This document shows positions 1-9,051 of a stretch of 12,316 nt of DNA, piece by piece; the first letter of the stretch is position 1; each line of letters begins with the position of its first letter. Where the stretch lies: the IMG/VR virus record IMGVR_UViG_2563366829_000021, positions 1 to 12,316 of that record, one strand, 5' to 3'. Below the pieces are notes generated by a model. The model was not told the origin of the DNA, made no database searches, and worked only from the letters and a program-made list of their open reading frames with translations. Both the position numbers and the translations under genes were made by a program. The DNA is from a virus (lineage: Duplodnaviria; Heunggongvirae; Uroviricota; Caudoviricetes).

Positions 1-585
1 AAGCAGAAAAAGCTTATTATGCTTCCATCGGAAACGATGATCTGGCAGCCTGAGTTCACAGATAAAACACTCTCCAGGAAACCCGGGGCGGTTCACGTCG
101 ACGTGCTTACCAATCAGTTCGAGGTTCTTCACCTTGTCAGGCCATTTAATTTTTTTGAGGATTGTCTCTATCGAATCCTCGTTCATGTTCATGATGGTCG
201 ATGACAGATCAAAGCCGCTAAGCGTAGTGCGCCAGATTTTCGGCCACTCGCGGATTGGCTTAAGGCTCCCATCGTCGTTGAGGATGTCGATCACGTCCAT
301 CTGGTCGATCTCCACCAGGCGCATGAGAACGTAATCAGCACTGACGCGCATTCGTTTGTTGCGCTCCTCCATCAACTCGGCAATCCGTTTCTGAATGCGT
401 TCATCGCGCATCATGACACTGGCTTTAACTGCCGCTGTATTTGGGGAGAATCCTGCGTTAATCGCAGCCTGAGTCTGATTTTCAGGCGTTTTGATGTATG
501 ACTGGCAATAAGCCTCCTGCATTGCTGTTAGTGGCTTAAATTGCGTTGATTTGCGTTTATAGGTTTTAGGTTCAGCAGGCATCAT
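1..585 (-). CDS. Phage terminase small subunit (Terminase_2-like), partial: C-terminal end lies beyond the window start
   Basis: Manual minus-strand translation from the ATG at 585..583 runs with no stop to position 1 (MMPAEPKTYKRKSTQFKPLTAMQEAYCQSYIKTPENQTQAAINAGFSPNTAAVKASVMMRDERIQKRIAELMEERNKRMRVSADYVLMRLVEIDQ...). The Q-A-Y-C-Q-x-Y ... TQAAIxAG(F/Y)S ... RIQxRIAELxEER pattern matches terminase small subunit N-terminal HTH domains from memory. Absent from the ORF track because no stop lies in the window. GGTGG SD-like element 5-9 nt upstream. Confidence 0.7.
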   Translation of the reverse strand, partial: MMPAEPKTYKRKSTQFKPLTAMQEAYCQSYIKTPENQTQAAINAGFSPNTAAVKASVMMRDERIQKRIAELMEERNKRMRVSADYVLMRLVEIDQMDVIDILNDDGSLKPIREWPKIWRTTLSGFDLSSTIMNMNEDSIETILKKIKWPDKVKNLELIGKHVDVNRPGFPGECFICELRLPDHRFRWKHNKLFLL

Positions 586-592
586 AACCACC

Positions 593-624
593 GTGGTAAT
601 AGTTACCGTTGTGGTAATAGTACC
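593..624. repeat. Two direct copies of GTGGTAATAGT(T)ACC (593-607 and 611-624) in the leader of the terminase small-subunit gene
   Basis: Read directly from the sequence. Each copy is itself a near-palindrome (GGTAA-TAG-TTACC) and uses the same GGTAA/TTACC half-sites as the operator palindrome, but in inverted order. Confidence 0.45.
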
Positions 625-628
625 ATGC

Positions 629-654
629 AAAATAAAGCCGCCATAGTTGGCGGC
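629..654 (-). terminator. Rho-independent terminator for leftward (minus-strand) transcription, downstream of CDS 660..872
   Basis: Stem GCCGCC (637-642) / GGCGGC (649-654) with a 6-nt loop; on the minus-strand RNA it is followed by UUUAUUUUG. No U-tract in the plus orientation. Confidence 0.55.
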
Positions 655-659
655 AGTAT

Positions 660-872
660 TCAAAGTCCATCAAATTCATCGTAAAAACTCTCGTCAAGAT
701 ACCCTTTCCATTTACCGCGAATGAAAATTACATCCTCGCCGCAAGGGTGCTGACTGTCGATAACTATATCCCTCCTGGCGCAACCATACTTATGCATGAG
801 AAATTTAACCTCTTTCGGAAAATTAGCTGAGTTATCTCTCATATCTTCAAGGTCGTAGCGTATTTTTGGCAT
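660..872 (-). CDS. Hypothetical phage protein (70 aa)
   Basis: ORF-track ORF 660..893. Start placed at the internal ATG 872 (MPKIRYDLEDMRDN...) because a GAAGGTG SD-like sequence lies 5-10 nt upstream and the upstream gene stops at 890. Same strand as the operon. Confidence 0.5.
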   Translation of the reverse strand: MPKIRYDLEDMRDNSANFPKEVKFLMHKYGCARRDIVIDSQHPCGEDVIFIRGKWKGYLDESFYDEFDGL

Positions 873-2023: not shown

Positions 2024-2752
2024 TCACTCTCCTTTGATGCGAATGCCAGCGACGCGTGGCACATTAACTTCCACGATGCGCACAGTTGGTTTGTACATCT
2101 CAATCGCTGTCAGCCAGTCAGCGCCAGTCATGCGCTTTTCTGCATCGCCATTAGTCCACTTAACCGGTACACCAATAGCCTTCATCGCGATTTCTATTTC
2201 CCCGGCAATGGCGCTTTTTCCGCAACCAGTAAAACCAGAAACAACGACAAGAACTTCGCCTTTGGCTGGTTTTATTTCCCGCGCTTCCAGTTCTGCTATG
2301 CGCTTCTCTGATGCTTCAAGTAACGCCTGCTTATCGCGTAGCGCTTCTTCCAGTTCAGCAACATGGCACTCACTATCAATAAGGTTGTTCTCTGCGGCTT
2401 CCAGCTCAACACGCAGCTTCCCTACCGTTAGCGCAATATCCTCGTTCTCCTGATCGCGGCTTTTGATGTATTGCAGGTTTCTTTCCCGTTCATCCAGCAG
2501 TGCCAGCACGGTAGCTGGATTGGCTGCGGCGATGAATTCAGCATTGGCCTGCTGCTCCATTTGGAAATCTTCATAGAAACGGCTTTCTGGATGCGCTCCT
2601 TCAATTCTGCAAATGGGAATATATCCAGCAACTTCACGATGAATTAGTGCATCATCACCATCAAATCGGCCATCTCCATATTCGAGCGACCACTCGCCAC
2701 ACGTTGCTTTCTCTGCCGCCTCACGCAGTGCCTGATAGTCAATCTTGCTCAC
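2024..2752 (-). CDS. Ead/Ea22-like family protein (coiled-coil-rich, 242 aa)
   Basis: N-terminus MSKIDYQALREAAEKAT...GEW and a long Glu/Leu/Ala-rich coiled-coil segment resemble Ea22-like proteins of lambdoid prophages. GTG start at 2752 with AGGAGG 6 nt upstream; GTGA overlap with the upstream stop. Confidence 0.6.
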   Translation of the reverse strand: MSKIDYQALREAAEKATCGEWSLEYGDGRFDGDDALIHREVAGYIPICRIEGAHPESRFYEDFQMEQQANAEFIAAANPATVLALLDERERNLQYIKSRDQENEDIALTVGKLRVELEAAENNLIDSECHVAELEEALRDKQALLEASEKRIAELEAREIKPAKGEVLVVVSGFTGCGKSAIAGEIEIAMKAIGVPVKWTNGDAEKRMTGADWLTAIEMYKPTVRIVEVNVPRVAGIRIKGE

Positions 2753-3261
2753 TGGTTGCCTCCTTTGCGAAGCTGGGCGGCGATATCTTCGAGAACGCCA
2801 TCAGAGAATGAGCGGTCAAAATCGCCTTCCGGCGCATTAGCCATAAACTCAGTAGAGGTAAGAATCATCCGGGCAATATCCGCGGCGTTCTTCGCAGTAT
2901 CATCAATAAAACCAGCTTCCCAGGCAGCCAGCATTCTGTTCGCCACAAAGTAAGCGCCCTCCTTGCGTGCTTCAGTCTTCACTTCAGCCAGGAAAGCGTC
3001 GGTGGCTGGGGTTTCCGTGAAGTTGTCCTCCCAACCGTAGTACTCCTGACGACAGAAGTTATTAAATTCCTTCTCCGACTGTTTAAGCCCCGCATTCTCC
3101 GCCGCCAGCGCATTAGCACGCACCAGTTGCACTTCCAGTTGCGTTGCCAAATCGCTGATCAGCTTTGCCACACTGCGCATATCAACGGCACCACATTCTG
3201 CTTTCAGTTCCGAAGCCATCTCATGCCCGGCGGAAACTAACCCTTTGATATTACTTTCCAT
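2749..3261 (-). CDS. Hypothetical phage protein (170 aa)
   Basis: ORF with ATG at 3261 and AGGG SD 5 nt upstream; stop overlaps the start of the next gene. No family recognised. Confidence 0.55.
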   Translation of the reverse strand: MESNIKGLVSAGHEMASELKAECGAVDMRSVAKLISDLATQLEVQLVRANALAAENAGLKQSEKEFNNFCRQEYYGWEDNFTETPATDAFLAEVKTEARKEGAYFVANRMLAAWEAGFIDDTAKNAADIARMILTSTEFMANAPEGDFDRSFSDGVLEDIAAQLRKGGNQ

Positions 3262-3322
3262 CTTTACCCTCGCTTATCCACATAACTTATTGATTACATT
3301 GATAACTAAAAAGATCGTCGAT

Positions 3323-3667
3323 TTAGAACTCTTCGATGTTCCAGCCACCACCTGCTTTCTTTGGCTTAACCGTTACCCCGATGATTCGGAACGGATACTG
3401 ATCTGCGGCGACTTTGGTTTTCACCCTGGCGTCGTCGGTCCAGAAACCTTTCACTTCGTGCAGTTCCATCTCGCCGGTGGCGAGCATCACAGCGAAATCT
3501 GGCGTATAAAACGTGTTATCAGCTAACCGCAGCTTGATACCCTCGAACCGATACCAGGCGATTTCCCCTGCACGTTTACGCTGCTCAAGGTGCTGGCAAT
3601 ACGCAGATTCTGTTTTGTTCATCTGGCCTGTTTTGAGTCGACCAAGAGCCTGTATCTGTTTTCTCAT
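3323..3667 (-). CDS. DUF1064-like phage protein, possibly PD-(D/E)XK-fold nuclease
   Basis: 114-aa ORF; motif YTPDF...ELHEVKG...DDARVK is consistent with a D...E-x-K nuclease-like core and my recollection of DUF1064. ATG at 3667 sits directly downstream of a promoter-like element. Confidence 0.55.
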   Translation of the reverse strand: MRKQIQALGRLKTGQMNKTESAYCQHLEQRKRAGEIAWYRFEGIKLRLADNTFYTPDFAVMLATGEMELHEVKGFWTDDARVKTKVAADQYPFRIIGVTVKPKKAGGGWNIEEF

Positions 3668-3669
3668 GA

Positions 3670-3748
3670 TTTACCCCTGAGGTAATTAAAAACCACATAA
3701 GACACTAAATCAATAGATTTTAGAATATTTTATTACCCAGTAGGTAAT
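3670..3748 (-). promoter_or_regulatory. Internal promoter with two operator palindromes: ATTACC-CAGTA-GGTAAT (3732-3748) and TTTACC-CCTGA-GGTAAT (3670-3686) flanking a -35 TTGATT (plus 3708-3713) / 17 bp / -10 TTTAAT (plus 3685-3690), reading toward 3667
   Basis: Read from the minus strand: ATTACCTACTGGGTAAT-(18 nt)-TTGATT-(17 nt)-TTTAAT overlapping ATTACCTCAGGGGTAAA, then ATG. Same geometry as the PL-like promoter at 6768-6846. Confidence 0.5.
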
Positions 3749-3758
3749 CATCGAGACG

Positions 3759-3781
3759 TAAAAAAATGCGCTATCGCGCTG
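3759..3781 (-). terminator. Weak terminator-like element downstream of the P-like gene
   Basis: Short GC palindrome GCGC-GATA-GCGC on the minus-strand RNA followed by seven U. The stem is only 4-5 bp, so low confidence. Confidence 0.3.
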
Positions 3782-3784
3782 GTA

Positions 3785-4567
3785 TTACTTGATAAATCCT
3801 GCCGCCTTTCCCCGCCTGTATTCCTCCATCAGCCACTGCGCCGGTGTTATTCCCCCAAGGGTGGCGGCGTTAGGCATGCACCCGAAACTTCGCCCTGGTG
3901 GATGGTAAACGTCTCTCCCTGTGTCCGGAGGTGTACTCATGGGTTCTGGCTTTGCCTGTATGCTGATCACCGGATCGGGTATCTGCTGTCCGGAAGCCAC
4001 CTTTTTCGCCCAATCATCGAGCAGCCTGCGCGCGTGTTTCTCAACCTCAATCTCGCTAAGCTGGCGCTGATACATTGCACGGCGGGTATCACATACGACC
4101 CAGTACATAACCGGATGTCGCCACGGGAATCTTTCGGGACCACCAGGATATAAACTTTTTTCCTTGCTGTACCGGTGAAACTCCGCCATCACATCGTCAA
4201 TGGTGACGCCAAGAACCATCTTGCTGTCTTTGCACCACTTGATGAATTGCCCAGGCGACGGCCAGAACGGAGATTCACTGGCGCGGGCGTGGCGCATACC
4301 AGCGTTAACCTGTTCCATTGTTGTGATCCCATTCTCCAGAAACGCAAGCATCCATTGTTTTCGAAATTCGTTTAGCTTTCCTTGCTCGCTGATAGCAGCG
4401 ATGCTGCCTGGAAATGCAGCCTGTAACTGGACAAACATTTCGTTGAAAATTCTTGCAACCTGCTCCTTCTTTGCCCTTTCATCGTCAGCAGAAGCAACCG
4501 CCGTCGAGTGGTCATGCCCACCACGAAAGCGATCGTACTCATTAAGAAGTTCTGGAGTTGATTTCAT
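3785..4567 (-). CDS. Replication protein P-like (lambda P family, DnaB helicase loader)
   Basis: WMLAFLENGITTMEQVNAGMRHARASESPFWPSPGQFIKWC aligns almost residue-for-residue with the lambda P segment WVLAFRENGITTMEQVNAGMRVARRQNRPFLPSPGQFVAWC as I recall it. Start chosen at ATG 4567 (MKSTPELLNEYD, compare lambda MKNIAAQMVNFD) with GAGGTG SD upstream; overlaps the 3' end of the O-like gene. Confidence 0.8.
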   Translation of the reverse strand: MKSTPELLNEYDRFRGGHDHSTAVASADDERAKKEQVARIFNEMFVQLQAAFPGSIAAISEQGKLNEFRKQWMLAFLENGITTMEQVNAGMRHARASESPFWPSPGQFIKWCKDSKMVLGVTIDDVMAEFHRYSKEKSLYPGGPERFPWRHPVMYWVVCDTRRAMYQRQLSEIEVEKHARRLLDDWAKKVASGQQIPDPVISIQAKPEPMSTPPDTGRDVYHPPGRSFGCMPNAATLGGITPAQWLMEEYRRGKAAGFIK

Positions 4568-5375
4568 CCCACACCTCATCTATCCAGTCAGTGTTATGCC
4601 AGTCAAGGCTCTTTCTGACTTCACCTGATTTCTGTCTACAGAACTGGATGCGCCTTGCCAGCTTCTGCTCCCACTGTGCCTGATGGTATGCCTTACCCTC
4701 AGCCATCCAGTAAATTCTGAACTCTGCAAGTTCCTGTGCCGTTGGCAGACTGTCCAGGTAGATTCCCTGCAATGAGCTTTTCCGAAGAAAGTCATCTGAT
4801 GGCTGCCATTGTTCATGCATGACAAATTTACCTAATTGCCCTGGCCCACCAGGAGGAACAAAGTTATTCATCACGGCGTTGTTTGCGACGGGGTCATGAG
4901 GCACAGAATCCCCGGTTTTTGTCCTGCTCTCCCTCTCTTGGTTAAATGACTGGTTATATGACTGGTTCTGGATCCCGTTTTTGGGATCATTCAACATCCC
5001 GTTTTTGGGATCATTCAACATCCCGTTTTTGGGTATATTCCCGTTTTCGGTAACATTACCGTTTTCGGGTTCATTGCCCCCCTCCCGGTTGCCTTTAATG
5101 TTCCCGTTTTTGGTTATATTAAGAGAGAAAACCCGCACTCTTTTTGTCGCTCCCTTTCTCTCTCCGGTATCTGAAATAAGCCCCATTTTCATGAGCGATA
5201 TAAGCCCGGCCTGCACGGTTTTTTTATTCAGGCAAGTGTCTTTAACGAGGCGTTCTATGCTGGGGTAGCAGAGGTTATATTCATCGGCTCTGTCAGCCAT
5301 CGAGAGCAGTATGAGCTTTAATGATGAGCTACCTGGATCTGTCTCCCAGGCCCAATCTGTTGCATGTCTGCTCAT
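4542..5375 (-). CDS. Replication initiator, lambda-O-like: N-terminal winged-HTH DNA-binding domain, Asn/Gly-rich repeat linker, C-terminal domain
   Basis: 277-aa ORF directly upstream of the P-like gene. N-terminal LKLILLSMADRADEYNLCYPSIERLVKDTCLNKKTVQAGLISLMKMGLIS looks like a replication-initiator HTH. The central low-complexity linker is encoded by the tandem DNA repeats at 4973-5120. GGAG SD upstream of ATG 5375. Confidence 0.7.
   Translation of the reverse strand: MSRHATDWAWETDPGSSSLKLILLSMADRADEYNLCYPSIERLVKDTCLNKKTVQAGLISLMKMGLISDTGERKGATKRVRVFSLNITKNGNIKGNREGGNEPENGNVTENGNIPKNGMLNDPKNGMLNDPKNGIQNQSYNQSFNQERESRTKTGDSVPHDPVANNAVMNNFVPPGGPGQLGKFVMHEQWQPSDDFLRKSSLQGIYLDSLPTAQELAEFRIYWMAEGKAYHQAQWEQKLARRIQFCRQKSGEVRKSLDWHNTDWIDEVWDEINSRTS
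4973..5120. repeat. Iteron-like tandem repeat array inside the O-like gene (candidate origin of replication)
   Basis: Two exact 24-bp copies TCCCGTTTTTGGGATCATTCAACA (4973-4996, 4997-5020), then degenerate 18-bp units TCCCGTTTTTGGGTATAT, TCCCGTTTTCGGTAACAT, TACCGTTTTCGGGTTCAT and a further TTCCCGTTTTTGGTTATATT at 5101-5120. Each unit has a CCCG-T4/5-GGG dyad core. Confidence 0.6.
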
Positions 5376-5390
5376 GATTAATCTCCGCTA

Positions 5391-5591
5391 TCAGCTTGAG
5401 TGTTGTGGGGAGGAATTAATCATGATCTGCTTAATCTCTGCCCTGATGCGACGGTTTGATTCCATGGTGCACTCAGCACAGTGTCCGTTGTAAACCCAGC
5501 GTTCACTGTCATGTCCATGCTTACATGGTTTTCCGGTGTAGTAGCGTTTAAGTCCGCGCTTTGCGGCATCAATACGTGTAATGATTTCCAT
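5391..5591 (-). CDS. Small Cys/His-rich protein (C-K-H-G-H ... C-A-E-C), possible zinc-ribbon regulator at the cII-equivalent position
   Basis: ORF-track ORF 5391..5654; start uncertain (ATG at 5591 with AGGG 8 nt upstream preferred; 5627 and 5654 are alternatives that would run into the terminator region). No homolog recognised. Confidence 0.4.
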   Translation of the reverse strand: MEIITRIDAAKRGLKRYYTGKPCKHGHDSERWVYNGHCAECTMESNRRIRAEIKQIMINSSPQHSS

Positions 5592-5700
5592 GGTAAGCCC
5601 TGTTATTAGTATTGGGATTACGGTCATTTTGTGCTGACACAAAAAAAAGATCAACCAGATTTGGTTTTTTGTTACCTTTTAGGTGCGAATAGATATGAAA

Positions 5701-5720
5701 AGACCGCCGGATGGCGGTCT
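5701..5720 (-). terminator. Hairpin terminator immediately downstream of the Cro-like gene (tR1-like position)
   Basis: Perfect 8-bp stem AGACCGCC / GGCGGTCT with a 4-nt loop; minus-strand RNA continues UUUCAUAUCUAUU (interrupted U-tract). Confidence 0.5.
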
Positions 5721-5741
5721 ACAGAGGGTTGTGGCTGGATA

Positions 5742-5972
5742 TCATGAGTAGAAGAAGTATGCCAGTTCTGCTTTTGAGCGCAGCCATTGTCTTGTTTTAC
5801 AGGCTTTAAAAAGCCCATTCATCAATACCTTACCTGGCATTTTGCGCTTACCTGTTAAGTGAGTCTGGATATAGTGACTCGTCGTTCCGGCTTCCTGTGC
5901 GAAGGCTTCACGCTCATCCGGAGTAAGTGCAAGCCAGTGCTTTTTGAAATCGAAATGTCCGTTATCGCTCAT
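5742..5972 (-). CDS. Cro-like small DNA-binding regulator (76 aa)
   Basis: Divergent from the repressor across an operator-rich intergenic region; sequence LTPDEREAFAQEAGTTSHYIQTHLTGKRKMPGKVL looks like a short HTH protein. Position and orientation match cro. Confidence 0.55.
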   Translation of the reverse strand: MSDNGHFDFKKHWLALTPDEREAFAQEAGTTSHYIQTHLTGKRKMPGKVLMNGLFKACKTRQWLRSKAELAYFFYS

Positions 5973-6126
5973 AGCTATTGCCTGATATTTATTTCAGATA
6001 ATAAATATTCACCCATAAGGTAACAAAAATCAAGGATAGTTACCTATGGGGTGCATTTACCTGTTGGGTAATATTGCTTTAAATTGAATCATCTACTGAT
6101 TCATATATGAGGCGATTTTCCAGAAA
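5973..6126. promoter_or_regulatory. OR-like divergent promoter/operator region between the Cro-like and repressor genes
   Basis: Strong palindrome TTTACC-TGTTG-GGTAAT at 6056-6072; two degenerate mirror-image copies TCACC-CATAA-GGTAAC (6009-6024) and TTACC-TATGG-GGTGC (6040-6054) flanking a -35-like TTGATT (minus, plus coords 6028-6033). Candidate leftward -10 TATTAT (plus 5998-6003). Individual promoter hexamers are tentative. Confidence 0.6.
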
Positions 6127-6711
6127 ATGAAAAGTATCCAGGACGTCCGCAGGCAAAATCTCAACGACTTGATCGACCGTGAATTCAATGGTGTTCAGAC
6201 GCGGATGGCAGAAAAACTTGGAACTCAGGCAAATCTGGTAAACCGCTGGGCTCTTGGCAAGAAGGTTATCGGCGACCAGGTTGCGCGAAAAATTGAAGCT
6301 GCCGCCAATAAACCCCGTAACTGGCTTGATATCGATCGCTCGCTTTCTCAGGAAGGTTTTCAGCCTGTCGGCCCAAGCGACATTGGTCAGCTGGCGGCTC
6401 ACAACCTGGAACGCTGGATGAGCGAAAGCCGCGACCTTTCAACGCAGGGAAAACTTCACCGCGCATCCGGCGTCGCCCAGGTGACAATCAGTCGCCTGTT
6501 AAACAATGAGGTCAGCGTTTCCATTTCCACCCTGGAGAATGTTGCATCCGCATTCGGGCGTCACGGATATGAACTACTGATTCACCCGCACGACCCTGCG
6601 ACTATCAACTATGACCGCTCACGCTACGCATTGTTACCCGAAACCGAGAAAGCAAAGATCGAAAGTTACATTGAATTTGTCATCAACCAGAACGAAAAAA
6701 GCAAACAATAA
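6127..6711 (+). CDS. Prophage repressor (CI-equivalent) with two tandem XRE-type HTH domains and no recognisable S24 peptidase domain
   Basis: 194 aa. HTH-like segment 1 around residues 10-70 (NLNDLIDREFNGVQTRMAEKLGTQANLVNRWALGKKVIGDQVARKIEAAANKPRNWL); HTH-like segment 2 around residues 95-150 (LSTQGKLHRASGVAQVTISRLLNNEVSVSISTLENVASAFG). The C-terminus shows no LexA-type Ala-Gly/Ser/Lys pattern. Followed by a strong terminator. Confidence 0.7.
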   Translation: MKSIQDVRRQNLNDLIDREFNGVQTRMAEKLGTQANLVNRWALGKKVIGDQVARKIEAAANKPRNWLDIDRSLSQEGFQPVGPSDIGQLAAHNLERWMSESRDLSTQGKLHRASGVAQVTISRLLNNEVSVSISTLENVASAFGRHGYELLIHPHDPATINYDRSRYALLPETEKAKIESYIEFVINQNEKSKQ

Positions 6712-6731
6712 AACTATAGTTTTCAGTAAGT

Positions 6732-6757
6732 AAGCCGCCTCATGGCGGCTTTTTTAT
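6732..6757 (+). terminator. Rho-independent terminator after the repressor gene
   Basis: Stem AAGCCGCC (6732-6739) / GGCGGCTT (6744-6751) with loop TCAT, followed by TTTTTATT. No U-tract in the opposite orientation. Confidence 0.7.
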
Positions 6758-6767
6758 TGCCAGATAG

Positions 6768-6846
6768 ATTACCTTACGGGTAATTTTTTTAACTCATATC
6801 TATTGACACCAAACCAAATAAGCATAATTATTACCCCAACGGTAAC
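6768..6846 (+). promoter_or_regulatory. PL-like early promoter with two operator palindromes: ATTACC-TTACG-GGTAAT (6768-6784) and ATTACC-CCAAC-GGTAAC (6830-6846); -35 TTGACA (6803-6808), 17-bp spacer, -10 AATTAT (6826-6831)
   Basis: Consensus -35 hexamer; upstream operator centred about 30 bp upstream of the -35; downstream operator overlaps the last 2 nt of the -10 and the predicted start site. Confidence 0.6.
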
Positions 6847-6864
6847 AGACCGAGGTAACAAGTT

Positions 6865-7017
6865 ATGCAGTGGAAAATCATCAACGGTTGGTACTGCGTT
6901 ACTGCATGCGGATTCATGAGCTGGAAGTTCCGCACCTTACAGGAAGGCATTAAGTGGGCTTTCGTCAGCAAAGAAGCTCGCGATGTAGCCAACGATAACG
7001 AGATATGGGAGGGCTGA
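6865..7017 (+). CDS. Small hypothetical protein (50 aa), first ORF of the rightward early operon
   Basis: Not in the ORF track (under 60 aa). ATG 6865 with GAGG 9 nt upstream; translation MQWKIINGWYCVTACGFMSWKFRTLQEGIKWAFVSKEARDVANDNEIWEG; stop 2 nt before the next ATG. Not Arg-rich, so not obviously N-like. Confidence 0.4.
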   Translation: MQWKIINGWYCVTACGFMSWKFRTLQEGIKWAFVSKEARDVANDNEIWEG

Positions 7018-7019
7018 TA

Positions 7020-7319
7020 ATGAACGTTAATCAGCAGAAAAATCTTCAAAAAATCATGCTGGCATTCGACAAGGACTACCGCCTGTCAGAACAGCTATAT
7101 GACCGACAAGTTGAACTGATTGAGAGCATCCGACTTCATCAACTGTCCTCAACTTTCGACGTTGTAACAGGCAAAGGCGTTCGTCAGGAAGTGCTGGAGG
7201 CTGCTAAAGACAGCCCTGAGTTCGAAGAACTGATGGATGCCTACCGGCGCGAGGCAATGGCAATTATAGCGCGCTGGGATCTGGCGGATCAGCTTGATGG
7301 ACAGAGGGACGCGGCATGA
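7020..7319 (+). CDS. Hypothetical early protein (99 aa)
   Basis: Internal ATG 7020 preceded by GGGAGGG; ATGA stop/start overlap with the exonuclease gene. No family recognised. Confidence 0.55.
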   Translation: MNVNQQKNLQKIMLAFDKDYRLSEQLYDRQVELIESIRLHQLSSTFDVVTGKGVRQEVLEAAKDSPEFEELMDAYRREAMAIIARWDLADQLDGQRDAA

Positions 7320-8137: not shown

Positions 8138-9051
8138 GCAACGAAATTGCAATCACCAATGATGTGTTGGCTATTCGGGGAATCGATGAAGTTACATGGA
8201 GCGCTCTGAAAAACAGTATTTACCCTGGGGCAAAAGATGAATCGGTAATGATGGCAGTCGATTACTGCCGGGCGCGTCAACTCGATCCTCTTCTTAAGCC
8301 GGTACACCTGGTACCAATGAGTGTTAAAGACTCGAAGAGTGGAAAGAATGAATGGCGCGACGTGGTCATGCCTGGCATTGGACTTTATCGCATTCAGGCC
8401 TACCGTTCCGGCGATTACGCAGGCGCTAATGAACCTGAGTTCGGTCCAGATGTAACACAAACGCTTTCAGGCGTGGAGGTTACCTTCCCTCAGTGGTGTA
8501 AGTACACCGTCAGCAAGCGAATGGCAAGCGGGGAAATCGTAGAGTTTAGCGCCAAAGAATACTGGATTGAGAACTATGCAACTGGGGGGCGTGACACATC
8601 GGCACCAAATGCCATGTGGAAAAAGCGCCCTTATGCGCAGTTGGCAAAATGCGCAGAGGCACAGGCATTACGTAAAGCATGGCCGGAGATTGGTCAACAA
8701 GCCACAGCTGAGGAAATGGAAGGTAAATATATCGACTCACCTGACATTATTGAACGTGACGTAACTCCAAGAAGTCAGGCAAAGCACGGCACAGCATCCA
8801 GCATGAACAGTCTGATCAACGCTAAACCAGTGAAAAAGCATGATGAGCAAACGCGTAAAGCGGATAGCCGTGATCCAGAAGAAATGCTGATGGCCTTTAC
8901 CAGCGCAGCGATGAATTACAGCACTGTCTCCGAACTGGATAAGGCTTACAAATACATTGCACAAAAACTTTCAGATGATGACGAACTGCTGGCAAAAGCC
9001 ACCGACGTTTACAGCGTTCGTCGGGAAGAATTAAACGAAACATCTATGTAA
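8134..9051 (+). CDS. RecT/Bet-family single-strand annealing protein
   Basis: 305 aa from ATG 8134. Layout and segments (ALKNSIYPGAKDESVMMAVDYCRARQLDPLLKPVHLVP; WKKRPYAQLAKCAEAQALRKAWPE) parallel lambda Bet / RecT as I recall them. Confidence 0.8.
   Translation: MSNEIAITNDVLAIRGIDEVTWSALKNSIYPGAKDESVMMAVDYCRARQLDPLLKPVHLVPMSVKDSKSGKNEWRDVVMPGIGLYRIQAYRSGDYAGANEPEFGPDVTQTLSGVEVTFPQWCKYTVSKRMASGEIVEFSAKEYWIENYATGGRDTSAPNAMWKKRPYAQLAKCAEAQALRKAWPEIGQQATAEEMEGKYIDSPDIIERDVTPRSQAKHGTASSMNSLINAKPVKKHDEQTRKADSRDPEEMLMAFTSAAMNYSTVSELDKAYKYIAQKLSDDDELLAKATDVYSVRREELNETSM

What the first reader, a model, noticed from the sequence alone, without database searches (positions are those of the whole stretch)
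3670..6846. A 17-bp palindrome (ATTACC-N5-GGTAAT) recurs at three promoter regions: candidate operator set of the prophage repressor
Copies read directly from the sequence: 6768-6784 ATTACC-TTACG-GGTAAT (perfect), 3732-3748 ATTACC-CAGTA-GGTAAT (perfect), 6830-6846 ATTACC-CCAAC-GGTAAC, 6056-6072 TTTACC-TGTTG-GGTAAT, 3670-3686 TTTACC-CCTGA-GGTAAT, plus degenerate mirror-image copies at 6009-6024 and 6040-6054. A specified 12-position palindrome is expected far less than once per 12 kb by chance (my rough estimate, well below 0.01), so five strong copies all sitting in intergenic promoter regions is not random. Two of the three regions share one geometry: an operator centred about 30 bp upstream of the -35, and a second operator overlapping the last 2 nt of the -10 and the start site. 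This looks like a compact immunity regulon whose operator sequence can be defined from this window alone.
Basis: seen in the sequence. Interest (0 to 1): 0.65.

Follow-up and report, generated by a model that had tools for sequence, protein, structure and literature searches.

The report
Repressor operators of a phiV10/epsilon15-like prophage
The repeated 17-bp palindrome is real and is best read as the binding site of this E. coli prophage's repressor, but the same motif is already annotated as the repressor site in the related Salmonella phage epsilon15, so this is a correct re-discovery.

Summary
ATTACC-N5-GGTAAT occurs 8 times at 2 mismatches or fewer in the window, against 0.28 expected.

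The window is a phiV10/epsilon15-like (Uetakevirus) prophage of E. coli beside guaA. The 6127-6711 protein is a full-length homologue of the phage SPC32H repressor Rep, PDB 5D50.

The epsilon15 GenBank record marks eight 'repressor' binding features (seven full 17-mers, one annotated a base short).

What I add:
Two tandem sites at 584-618 lie just upstream of the true terS start.
- At two promoters the operator pair flanks the promoter with a 62-bp centre-to-centre spacing. That spacing holds in six phages from four host genera.
- The same prophage has six more intergenic sites outside the window. A 59-kb host sample has none.
- A Pseudomonas phage cI with a Rep-like DNA-binding domain is flanked by ATTACC-N4-GGTAAT sites.

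Direct Rep binding is inferred, not shown. I could not obtain the three primary papers.

The parts
6127..6711 (+). Rep, the prophage repressor (194 aa). It has an N-terminal HTH DNA-binding domain, a middle HTH-like dimerisation domain and a C-terminal tetramerisation/antirepressor-binding domain. It has no S24 peptidase domain.
   Evidence: Full-length match to SPC32H Rep, PDB 5D50 (E 3.5e-42). Pfam gives HTH_3 at 106-147 and a weak YdaS-type HTH at 21-61, with no peptidase domain. It is 99.5% identical to the phiV10 and ZX5 repressors. Overexpressing the ZX5 repressor cut lysis-gene transcripts by 99.97-99.99% (PMC9782041).
5742..5972 (-). Cro-like small HTH protein (76 aa), divergent from rep. 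First gene of the replication-side early operon.
   Evidence: 57-84% identical across five phages, with an invariant AGTTSHYIQ.HLT segment (A2). No Pfam hit. The Cro role is inferred from position.
6056..6072 (.). OR1, TTTACCTGTTGGGTAAT (1 mismatch). The strongest operator between rep and the cro-like gene.
   Evidence: TTACC and GGTAAT are invariant in six phages.
6039..6055 (.). OR2, GTTACCTATGGGGTGCA (4 mismatches). It abuts OR1 with a 17-bp centre spacing.
   Evidence: Aligned with the SPC32H, epsilon15 and Klebsiella sites ATTACCATTATGGTAAT, ATTACCGTTATGGTAAC and GTTACCTTTTTGGTAAG.
6008..6024 (.). OR3, TTCACCCATAAGGTAAC (3 mismatches). It lies inside the core of the leftward promoter for the cro-like gene.
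   Evidence: The invariant AAAAATCAA at 6025-6033 reads TTGATT on the minus strand, a candidate -35. A sigma-70-like match TTGTTA-17-TATTAT lies at 6026-5998 on the minus strand.
6768..6784 (.). OL-up, ATTACCTTACGGGTAAT (perfect), centred about 59 bp upstream of the predicted start of the recombination-side early promoter.
6803..6831 (+). Early promoter PL: TTGACA, 17 nt, AATTAT.
   Evidence: 10 of 12 consensus match. The -35 context CTATTGAC is conserved in six phages.
6830..6846 (.). OL-down, ATTACCCCAACGGTAAC (1 mismatch). It overlaps the last 2 nt of the -10 and the predicted start site, 62 bp from OL-up.
3732..3748 (.). Pmid upstream operator, ATTACCCAGTAGGTAAT (perfect), just downstream of the P-gene stop and terminator.
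   Evidence: phiV10 annotates a terminator at the equivalent place.
3685..3713 (-). Internal promoter Pmid on the minus strand: TTGATT (3713-3708), 17 nt, TTTAAT (3690-3685). It drives the DUF1064 gene and the genes after it.
   Evidence: Read from the sequence. Same layout as PL in six phages. The consensus scanner missed it because position 2 of the -10 is T.
3670..3686 (.). Pmid downstream operator, TTTACCCCTGAGGTAAT (1 mismatch), 62 bp from its partner. It overlaps the -10 end, the start site and the ribosome-binding site of the DUF1064 gene (ATG at 3667).
602..618 (.). terS operator 1 (minus strand ATTACCACAACGGTAAC, 1 mismatch). It starts at the last 2 nt of a candidate extended -10, TGgTACTAT (625-617).
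   Evidence: TGnTAYTAT followed by the operator is conserved in all six phages examined (this prophage, phiV10, epsilon15, SPC32H, Tyrion, Klebsiella BUCT711). epsilon15 annotates the orthologous site 12-27 as a repressor site.
584..600 (.). terS operator 2 (minus strand ATTACCACGGTGGTTAT, 1 mismatch). Centre 18 bp from operator 1; it ends at the terS start codons (ATG 585-583 and ATG 582-580).
637..654 (-). Intrinsic terminator upstream of the terS promoter and operators. Together with terminators at 6732-6751 (+) and 5720-5701 (-), it shows that transcription units are insulated and each restarts at a Rep-controlled promoter.

Best explanation
The palindromes are the operators of Rep, the 194-aa repressor encoded at 6127-6711 in a phiV10/epsilon15-like (Uetakevirus) prophage.

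Site recognition (inferred). The informative core is TTACC-N5-GGTAA, with the outermost A/T less constrained. The half-site centres are about 11 bp apart, which is one helical turn. That is the usual arrangement for two HTH domains reading successive major grooves.

Oligomer (from papers on the homologue). SPC32H Rep is reported to bind DNA as a tetramer, with each DNA-binding pair formed across its two dimers. One tetramer could therefore occupy two palindromes.

Site layout (shown in the sequence). The sites come mostly in pairs:
- 62 bp apart, about six helical turns, flanking the promoter at PL (6768/6830) and Pmid (3732/3670). The downstream site covers the end of the -10 and the start site.
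- Abutting, 17-18 bp apart, at OR (6056/6039, plus 6008 inside the cro-side promoter) and in front of terS (602/584).

Repression (inferred). Bound Rep blocks RNA polymerase at each of these terminator-insulated promoters. The prophage is thus silenced unit by unit, rather than through a lambda-style cascade from two promoters.

Induction (inferred from homology). Rep is not cleaved. The same prophage encodes an 85-aa protein 88% identical to the SPC32H antirepressor Ant, behind a LexA box. DNA damage would derepress ant, and Ant would then remove Rep from DNA.
For: - Enrichment: 8 sites against 0.28 expected. None at 1 mismatch or fewer in 59 kb of host DNA. Six more sites at 1 mismatch or fewer in the rest of the prophage, all intergenic.
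- Rep is a full-length homologue of SPC32H Rep, PDB 5D50, and has no S24 domain.
- The epsilon15 record annotates eight 'repressor' protein_bind features (seven full ATTACC-N5-GGTAAT 17-mers, one annotated a base short), including the syntenic PL, Pmid and terS positions.
- Each complete genome examined has 9-12 sites at 1 mismatch or fewer per roughly 39 kb.
- The operator-promoter layout and its 62-bp spacing (63 in one case) are conserved at PL and Pmid in six phages of E. coli, Enterobacter, Salmonella and Klebsiella.
- The three-site OR is conserved and so is the terS pair.
- The Rep N-terminal segment ANLVNRW is invariant although overall identity falls to 43%.
- In a scan of 185,579 species genomes for the 62-bp pair, all six Enterobacterales hits with enough sequence have a Rep homologue beside the module.
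- Pseudomonas phage PseuP_224 cI has a Rep-like N-terminal domain (39% identity, E 1e-12) fused to a different C-terminal domain. It is flanked by three upstream and two downstream ATTACC-N4-GGTAAT sites. Its cro-like ORF shows no BLASTP similarity to the one here.
- Overexpressing the 99.5%-identical ZX5 repressor abolished lysis-gene transcription (PMC9782041).
- Tetramer binding to palindromic sites and a looping-type tetramerisation domain are reported for SPC32H Rep (PMC9638917; PMC9986798).
- An Ant homologue and a LexA box are present in the same prophage.
Against: - No result here shows Rep touching these sequences. The epsilon15 annotation may itself be only a prediction.
- I could not read the three primary papers.
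- The Cro-like protein is at least as conserved as Rep. Conservation within the genus therefore cannot tell the two apart.
- The promoters are consensus matches only. Pmid and the terS extended -10 were read by eye, and the scanner did not call them. No convincing rep promoter was found.
- Bridging of the 62-bp pair by one tetramer is inferred from spacing alone.
- OR2 and OR3 in this prophage are poor matches (4 and 3 mismatches) and may bind weakly or not at all.
Confidence: 0.87

Rival explanations
1. The palindromes are mainly the sites of the Cro-like protein (5742-5972, minus strand) and Rep binds elsewhere. A weaker and more likely form is that both proteins share them, as CI and Cro do in lambda.
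For: The Cro-like protein has a strongly conserved HTH-like segment, AGTTSHYIQ.HLT, invariant in five phages. It co-occurs with the motif in every Enterobacterales locus examined. No other conserved palindrome is visible in the rep-cro intergenic alignment, so Cro would need sites there.
Against: In Pseudomonas phage PseuP_224 the same half-sites accompany a Rep-like DNA-binding domain, while the cro-like ORF there has no detectable similarity to this one. Sites lie at about 13 promoters across the prophage, including late and accessory genes. That suits a maintenance repressor better than a lytic-phase Cro. The epsilon15 annotators assigned them to the repressor.
Confidence: 0.06
2. The motif is the site of a host-encoded regulator common to enterobacteria, which the phage uses to sense host state.
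For: The same sequence is used by phages of four host genera, which could share a host factor. Four unrelated metagenome-assembled contigs carry similar paired palindromes with no Rep homologue nearby, so other proteins may read similar sequences.
Against: There are no sites at 1 mismatch or fewer in 59 kb of host chromosome. Only about 11 are expected by chance in a whole genome. The paired module occurs at about chance frequency across 596 Gb of genomes, except beside Rep homologues. I know of no E. coli regulator with this consensus (my own knowledge). The Pseudomonas case links the half-site to a phage protein domain.
Confidence: 0.03
3. The copies are chance or compositional by-products of AT-rich promoter DNA with no binding function.
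For: Two of the claimed copies are weak (3 and 4 mismatches). One 2-mismatch hit at 8414 lies inside a gene and is probably chance.
Against: No shuffle out of 200 reached the observed count. The sites keep exact positions and spacing across phages whose surrounding DNA is about 78% identical or does not align at all.
Confidence: 0.01

Closest known systems
Salmonella phage epsilon15 repressor gp38 and its annotated binding sites (GenBank AY150271.2)
   Same: The palindrome ATTACC-N5-GGTAAT is the same. The sites lie in the same places: downstream of the repressor gene ahead of the recombination operon, after the replication genes, and in front of terS. The gene order is the same.
   Different: The repressor here is only 43% identical. 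Spacers here are less AT-rich (0.63 against 0.85). PL has two sites here and three in epsilon15. The OR sites are more degenerate here. epsilon15 annotates no OR sites, although matching sequences exist there.
Salmonella phage SPC32H Rep-Ant switch (PDB 5D50 and 5D4Z; Kim and Ryu 2013; Kim et al. 2016)
   Same: Rep is homologous over its full length. The SPC32H genome carries 12 sites of the same motif at syntenic places. The prophage here has an Ant homologue 88% identical, behind a LexA box. It lacks a self-cleavage domain.
   Different: About 43% identity by tblastn. I could not read these papers, so I do not know which operators were tested experimentally. [quoted passage not shown]
Lambda CI/Cro with OR1-3 and OL1-3
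   Same: 17-bp two-fold symmetric operators. Three sites lie between divergent repressor and cro-like genes. More sites lie at the opposite early promoter. Cooperative binding by a repressor oligomer is likely.
   Different: There is no RecA-stimulated cleavage domain, and induction is by an antirepressor. Operators are not confined to two early promoters: they also sit at an internal promoter, in front of terS, and at late and accessory promoters. The pair geometry is 62 bp flanking the promoter, not 23-24 bp tandem sites (my own knowledge for lambda).
Pseudomonas phage PseuP_224 cI (OP795451.1)
   Same: [quoted passage not shown] The half-sites ATTACC/GGTAAT are the same, clustered on both sides of the repressor gene.
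   Different: The spacer is 4 bp, not 5. The C-terminal part is of the LexA/S24 self-cleaving kind (judged from the sequence by eye; not run against Pfam). It is a different phage type and host.

Membership tests
Uetakevirus (epsilon15/SPC32H-type) Rep-operator-Ant immunity system | Repressor homologous over its full length to SPC32H Rep (DNA-binding, middle dimerisation and C-terminal tetramerisation/Ant-binding domains) | tested here: met
   phmmer against PDB: 5D50 chain A, E 3.5e-42, residues 1-190 aligned to 2-197. C-terminal invariant residues are shared by five phages.
Uetakevirus (epsilon15/SPC32H-type) Rep-operator-Ant immunity system | Operator palindrome ATTACC-N5-GGTAAT as annotated for epsilon15 | tested here: met
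   The epsilon15 protein_bind 'repressor' features read ATTACC-N5-GGTAAT. The window has 2 perfect and 5 one-mismatch copies.
Uetakevirus (epsilon15/SPC32H-type) Rep-operator-Ant immunity system | Sites at syntenic regulatory positions (PL, OR, after the replication genes, upstream of terS) | tested here: met
Uetakevirus (epsilon15/SPC32H-type) Rep-operator-Ant immunity system | Small antirepressor Ant under LexA control in the same phage | tested here: met
   This lies outside the window in the same prophage. L037 13632-13889 (minus strand) is 88% identical to SPC32H Ant. CTGTATGTTTATACAG lies upstream of it.
Uetakevirus (epsilon15/SPC32H-type) Rep-operator-Ant immunity system | Rep physically binds these palindromes and represses the adjacent promoters | not testable with these tools
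   Indirect only: overexpressing the 99.5%-identical ZX5 repressor cut lysis-gene transcripts by more than 99.9%.
Lambda-type CI repressor switch | C-terminal S24/LexA-like self-cleavage domain | tested here: not met
   Pfam finds only HTH families in the 194-aa protein.
Lambda-type CI repressor switch | Operators confined to the two divergent early promoters flanking the immunity region | tested here: not met
   Additional sites lie at 3670-3748 and 584-618 in the window, and at six further intergenic places in the prophage.
Lambda-type CI repressor switch | Tripartite operator between divergent repressor and cro genes | tested here: met
   Three aligned sites at 6008, 6039 and 6056, conserved in six phages. 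Two of them are weak in this prophage.

The most novel reading that the evidence does not exclude
A single Rep tetramer clamps the two operators set 62 bp apart, at about -59 and +3, and encloses the whole promoter in a six-turn micro-loop. The near-invariant 62-bp spacing at two different promoters in phages of four host genera would be the signature of that requirement.

A corollary follows from the shared half-site and the invariant recognition helix. All Uetakeviruses of E. coli, Salmonella, Klebsiella and Enterobacter could belong to one immunity group despite 43% repressor identity, unlike the many immunity types of lambdoid phages.

Neither point may be in the literature, but I could not read the SPC32H papers to check.
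Probability: 0.3. Interest if true: 0.4.

Novelty: already known. Interest (0 to 1): 0.2.

Why it matters
This tells annotators that phiV10-type E. coli prophages use the epsilon15 operator. These prophages are present in about a tenth of complete E. coli genomes: 565 of 5426 match this region. The phiV10 GenBank record and the RefSeq annotation examined here mark no operators.

It gives a ready list of Rep-controlled promoters. That is useful because phiV10 and its relatives are being engineered as reporter and biocontrol phages.

It also shows a repression layout that differs from lambda: many insulated promoters are each switched off directly. The fixed 62-bp operator pair offers a simple test of how a tetrameric repressor with four DNA-binding domains engages DNA. 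The basic identification is not new.

Tried and rejected
- I tried to read Kropinski et al. 2007 (by DOI, PMC2698709 and PMID), Kim and Ryu 2013 (PMC3807360) and Kim et al. 2016 (PMC4983836). None is held. Whether binding to this palindrome has been shown experimentally therefore remains unverified.
- Text searches for the motif together with epsilon15 or Uetakevirus found no paper that defines the operator. The ZX5 paper speculates about a PL operator without giving a sequence.
- I looked for a convincing sigma-70 promoter for rep between 6073 and 6126. There are only weak candidates, so I left it unassigned.
- The consensus scanner did not call Pmid or the terS promoter. Those rest on reading the aligned sequences.
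- I tried to separate Rep from the Cro-like protein by covariation within the genus. Both have invariant HTH segments, so this was uninformative. The Pseudomonas phage comparison did better.
- I considered that 584-618 lay inside the terS coding sequence, as RefSeq and phiV10 annotate it. I rejected this because epsilon15, SPC32H and Tyrion start terS at MPAEPK, and a terminator hairpin lies inside the supposed N-terminal extension.
- I rejected 8414-8430 as an operator. It has 2 mismatches, lies in a gene and has no partner.

Full report
**What the window is**

The region 3300-7100 is 100% identical to the chromosome of E. coli MS 196-1. It is 97-98% identical to phage phiV10 and its relatives. 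The RefSeq annotation places the window in a prophage beside guaA, running from inside terS to the start of the integrase gene. The phage belongs to the genus Uetakevirus, whose type member is Salmonella phage epsilon15.

On the minus strand the gene order is:
- a cro-like gene (5742-5972);
- a small ORF;
- a DnaT/O-like replication gene with iterons (4542-5375);
- a lambda-P-like gene (3785-4579);
- a DUF1064 gene (3323-3667), followed by accessory genes and then terS.

On the plus strand it is:
- the two-HTH repressor (6127-6711);
- two small ORFs;
- an exonuclease and Bet, then regulators and a methylase.

**Checking the observation**

At 2 mismatches or fewer the pattern occurs 8 times, against 0.28 expected from dinucleotide-preserving shuffles. 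None of 200 shuffles reached 8.

Three of the eight were not in the finding:
- 584-600 and 602-618, one mismatch each;
- 8414-8430, two mismatches, inside bet and probably chance.

I sampled 59 kb of non-prophage chromosome from the same strain. It held no site at 1 mismatch or fewer and four at exactly 2 mismatches, with 2.2 expected. The rest of the same prophage held six more sites at 1 mismatch or fewer. All six lie between genes.

**It is already annotated**

The epsilon15 GenBank record carries eight 'protein_bind, repressor, lysogeny' features. Read out, each is ATTACC-N5-GGTAAT, though two features begin at the second base. They lie:
- ahead of the recombination operon (three sites);
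- after the replication genes;
- immediately upstream of terS;
- upstream of the portal operon;
- between the gp19 gene and the tailspike gene.

The window's repressor is a full-length homologue of Rep of the epsilon15-like phage SPC32H, whose crystal structures are 5D50 and 5D4Z.

I could not obtain the primary papers. I therefore cannot say whether binding to this sequence has been shown directly. Secondary accounts report the following:
- Rep binds palindromic sites as a tetramer, and each DNA-binding pair is formed across the two dimers (PMC9638917).
- Its C-terminal domain has a p53-like tetramerisation fold associated with DNA looping.

For the E. coli lineage, overexpression of the 99.5%-identical ZX5 repressor reduced endolysin and holin transcripts by 99.97-99.99%. 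That paper defines no operator.

**Anatomy in the window**

There are four regulatory regions, not three.

*PL (6768-6846, plus strand).* The rep terminator (6732-6751) comes first, then a perfect operator. Sixteen nucleotides further is CTATTGACA, then a 17-nt spacer and AATTAT. The final AT of that hexamer is the first two bases of the second operator.

*Pmid (3748-3670, minus strand).* The layout is the same, read after the P-gene stop. phiV10 annotates a terminator at that place. A perfect operator is followed by 16 nt, CTATTGATT, a 17-nt spacer and TTTAAT, whose AT begins the second operator. The spacer and right half of that operator also supply the ribosome-binding site of the DUF1064 gene.

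In both regions the operator centres are 62 bp apart.

*OR (6008-6072).* Three sites lie at centre spacings of 31 and 17 bp. Only 6056-6072 is a good match here. The alignment with SPC32H, epsilon15 and a Klebsiella phage shows all three positions are orthologous to better sites. The invariant AAAAATCAA between OR3 and OR2 reads TTGATT on the minus strand. That puts OR3 inside the core of the cro-side promoter. I could not place the rep promoter with any confidence.

*terS (584-618).* A terminator (654-637) is followed by TGgTACTAT and then two abutting operators that run up to the ATG. The same string (terminator, TGnTAYTAT, operators, ATG) is present in all six phages: this prophage, phiV10, epsilon15, SPC32H, Tyrion and Klebsiella BUCT711. 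I read TGnTAYTAT as an extended -10 promoter. That is an inference from the sequence, and the scanner did not call it.

The annotated TTG start of terS at 663 would place the terminator and both operators inside the gene. epsilon15, SPC32H and Tyrion all begin at MPAEPK, which corresponds to the ATG at 582. The long form is therefore probably an over-extension.

**Comparative evidence**

I compared six phages from four host genera. Their Rep proteins range from 43% to 99.5% identity to the one here.
- The PL and Pmid modules keep the same parts in the same order. The spacing is 62 bp in eleven of twelve cases and 63 bp in the other.
- Each complete genome has 9-12 sites at 1 mismatch or fewer.
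- Mismatches fall mainly on the outermost base pair, so the informative core is TTACC-N5-GGTAA. The central base is A or T in 90% of sites. These frequencies come from sites chosen by match, so they overstate conservation.
- The Rep N-terminal domain keeps an invariant ANLVNRW, the likely recognition helix.
- The Cro-like protein is equally conserved. The genus alone therefore cannot tell which protein reads the sites.

Two wider searches helped.

First, I scanned one genome from each of 185,579 species for a full operator followed 45 nt later by ATTACC. This gave 25 stretches, where about 17 are expected by chance. Six of the seven Enterobacterales stretches (from five contigs) have a Rep homologue (38-61% identity) next to the module; a Cro-like homologue was detected in five of them. 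Most of the other hits are a lone site with nothing else.

Second, Pseudomonas phage PseuP_224 encodes a cI whose first 70 residues resemble the Rep N-terminus (39% identity, E 1e-12), while the rest is a different domain. Three ATTACC-N4-GGTAAT-like sites lie just upstream of that gene and two just downstream. The divergent cro-like ORF there shows no BLASTP similarity to the one in this window. The half-site therefore follows the Rep DNA-binding domain.

**How it most likely works**

*Shown.* The sites exist, are highly enriched, sit at promoters and are conserved with the Rep family. Rep has no cleavage domain. The prophage carries an Ant homologue (88% identical to SPC32H Ant) behind a LexA box.

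*Inferred.*
- Two Rep N-terminal domains read the two half-sites one helical turn apart.
- A tetramer, with four such domains, fills two operators at once. These are either an abutting pair (OR, terS) or a pair 62 bp apart that brackets the promoter (PL, Pmid). The downstream site occludes the -10 and the start site.
- Every transcription unit begins after a terminator and has its own operator. Rep therefore silences the prophage promoter by promoter.
- On DNA damage LexA leaves the ant promoter, and Ant pulls Rep off the DNA.

**Verdict**

The finding is already known for the genus through the epsilon15 record, and this window holds orthologous copies. Its interest is low for a specialist.

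Three modest points may be new:
- the fixed 62-bp bracket geometry;
- the likelihood that the whole genus shares one operator specificity;
- the N4 variant in a Pseudomonas phage.

I could not check these against the papers I was unable to read.

Noticed in passing
window 580-663 (minus strand): The RefSeq and phiV10 terS start (TTG at 663) is probably about 27 codons too far upstream. The extension would contain a terminator hairpin (654-637) and two operator sites. epsilon15, SPC32H and Tyrion start at MPAEPK, which is the ATG at 582 here.
   Followed up: yes
window 4939-5124: Six iteron-like repeats of about 18-24 bp (core TCCCGTTTTTGGGAT, two of them identical 24-mers) plus a 12-bp doublet lie inside the DnaT/O-like replication gene (4542-5375, minus strand). 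This is probably the phage replication origin, as in lambda O.
   Followed up: partly
L037 4897-6110 and 17753-18981 (same prophage, outside the window): Two IS3-family insertions, truncated structural genes and a split holin gene suggest this prophage copy is defective, although its immunity region is intact.
   Followed up: partly
L037 8606, 8699, 10286, 11428, 13965; L002 96: Six more operator copies (1 mismatch or fewer) lie between genes elsewhere in the prophage. Several are in front of accessory genes (ORF6N, DUF2335, YafO-type toxin region), one is between ant and the tailspike gene, and one is ahead of the portal operon.
   Followed up: partly
L037 13909-13928: A LexA-box-like sequence, ACTGTATGTTTATACAGTA, lies upstream of an 85-aa ORF 88% identical to the SPC32H antirepressor Ant. 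Induction is therefore probably LexA to Ant to Rep.
   Followed up: yes
L039 2921-2975 and 3796-3837 (Pseudomonas phage PseuP_224): ATTACC-N4-GGTAAT palindromes flank a cI whose N-terminal domain resembles Rep. An unannotated 76-aa cro-like ORF lies at 2661-2891 (minus strand).
   Followed up: partly
L015 6726-6804, L022 2088-2166, L030 6179-6257, L032 4407-4518: Contigs binned to a spirochaete, a Terriglobia, an acholeplasma and a Desulfocucumaceae MAG each carry full ATTACC-N5-GGTAAT pairs 62 bp apart. No Rep or Cro homologue is detectable in the stretch held. This is more than chance predicts and is unexplained; it could be convergent operators or mis-binned DNA.
   Followed up: partly
L002 15059-15075; L001 12220; L005 13178; L006 12619: A conserved variant, TATACC-N5-GGTAAT, lies between the integrase gene and the lysis genes (the attP/int promoter region) in four phages. 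It could be a weak Rep site or an integrase arm site. It lies just outside the window.
   Followed up: no
window 6841-6858: A third GGTAAC half-site lies 12 bp after the PL downstream operator and coincides with the ribosome-binding site (GAGGT) of the 6865 ORF. At Pmid and terS the operators also overlap ribosome-binding sites.
   Followed up: no
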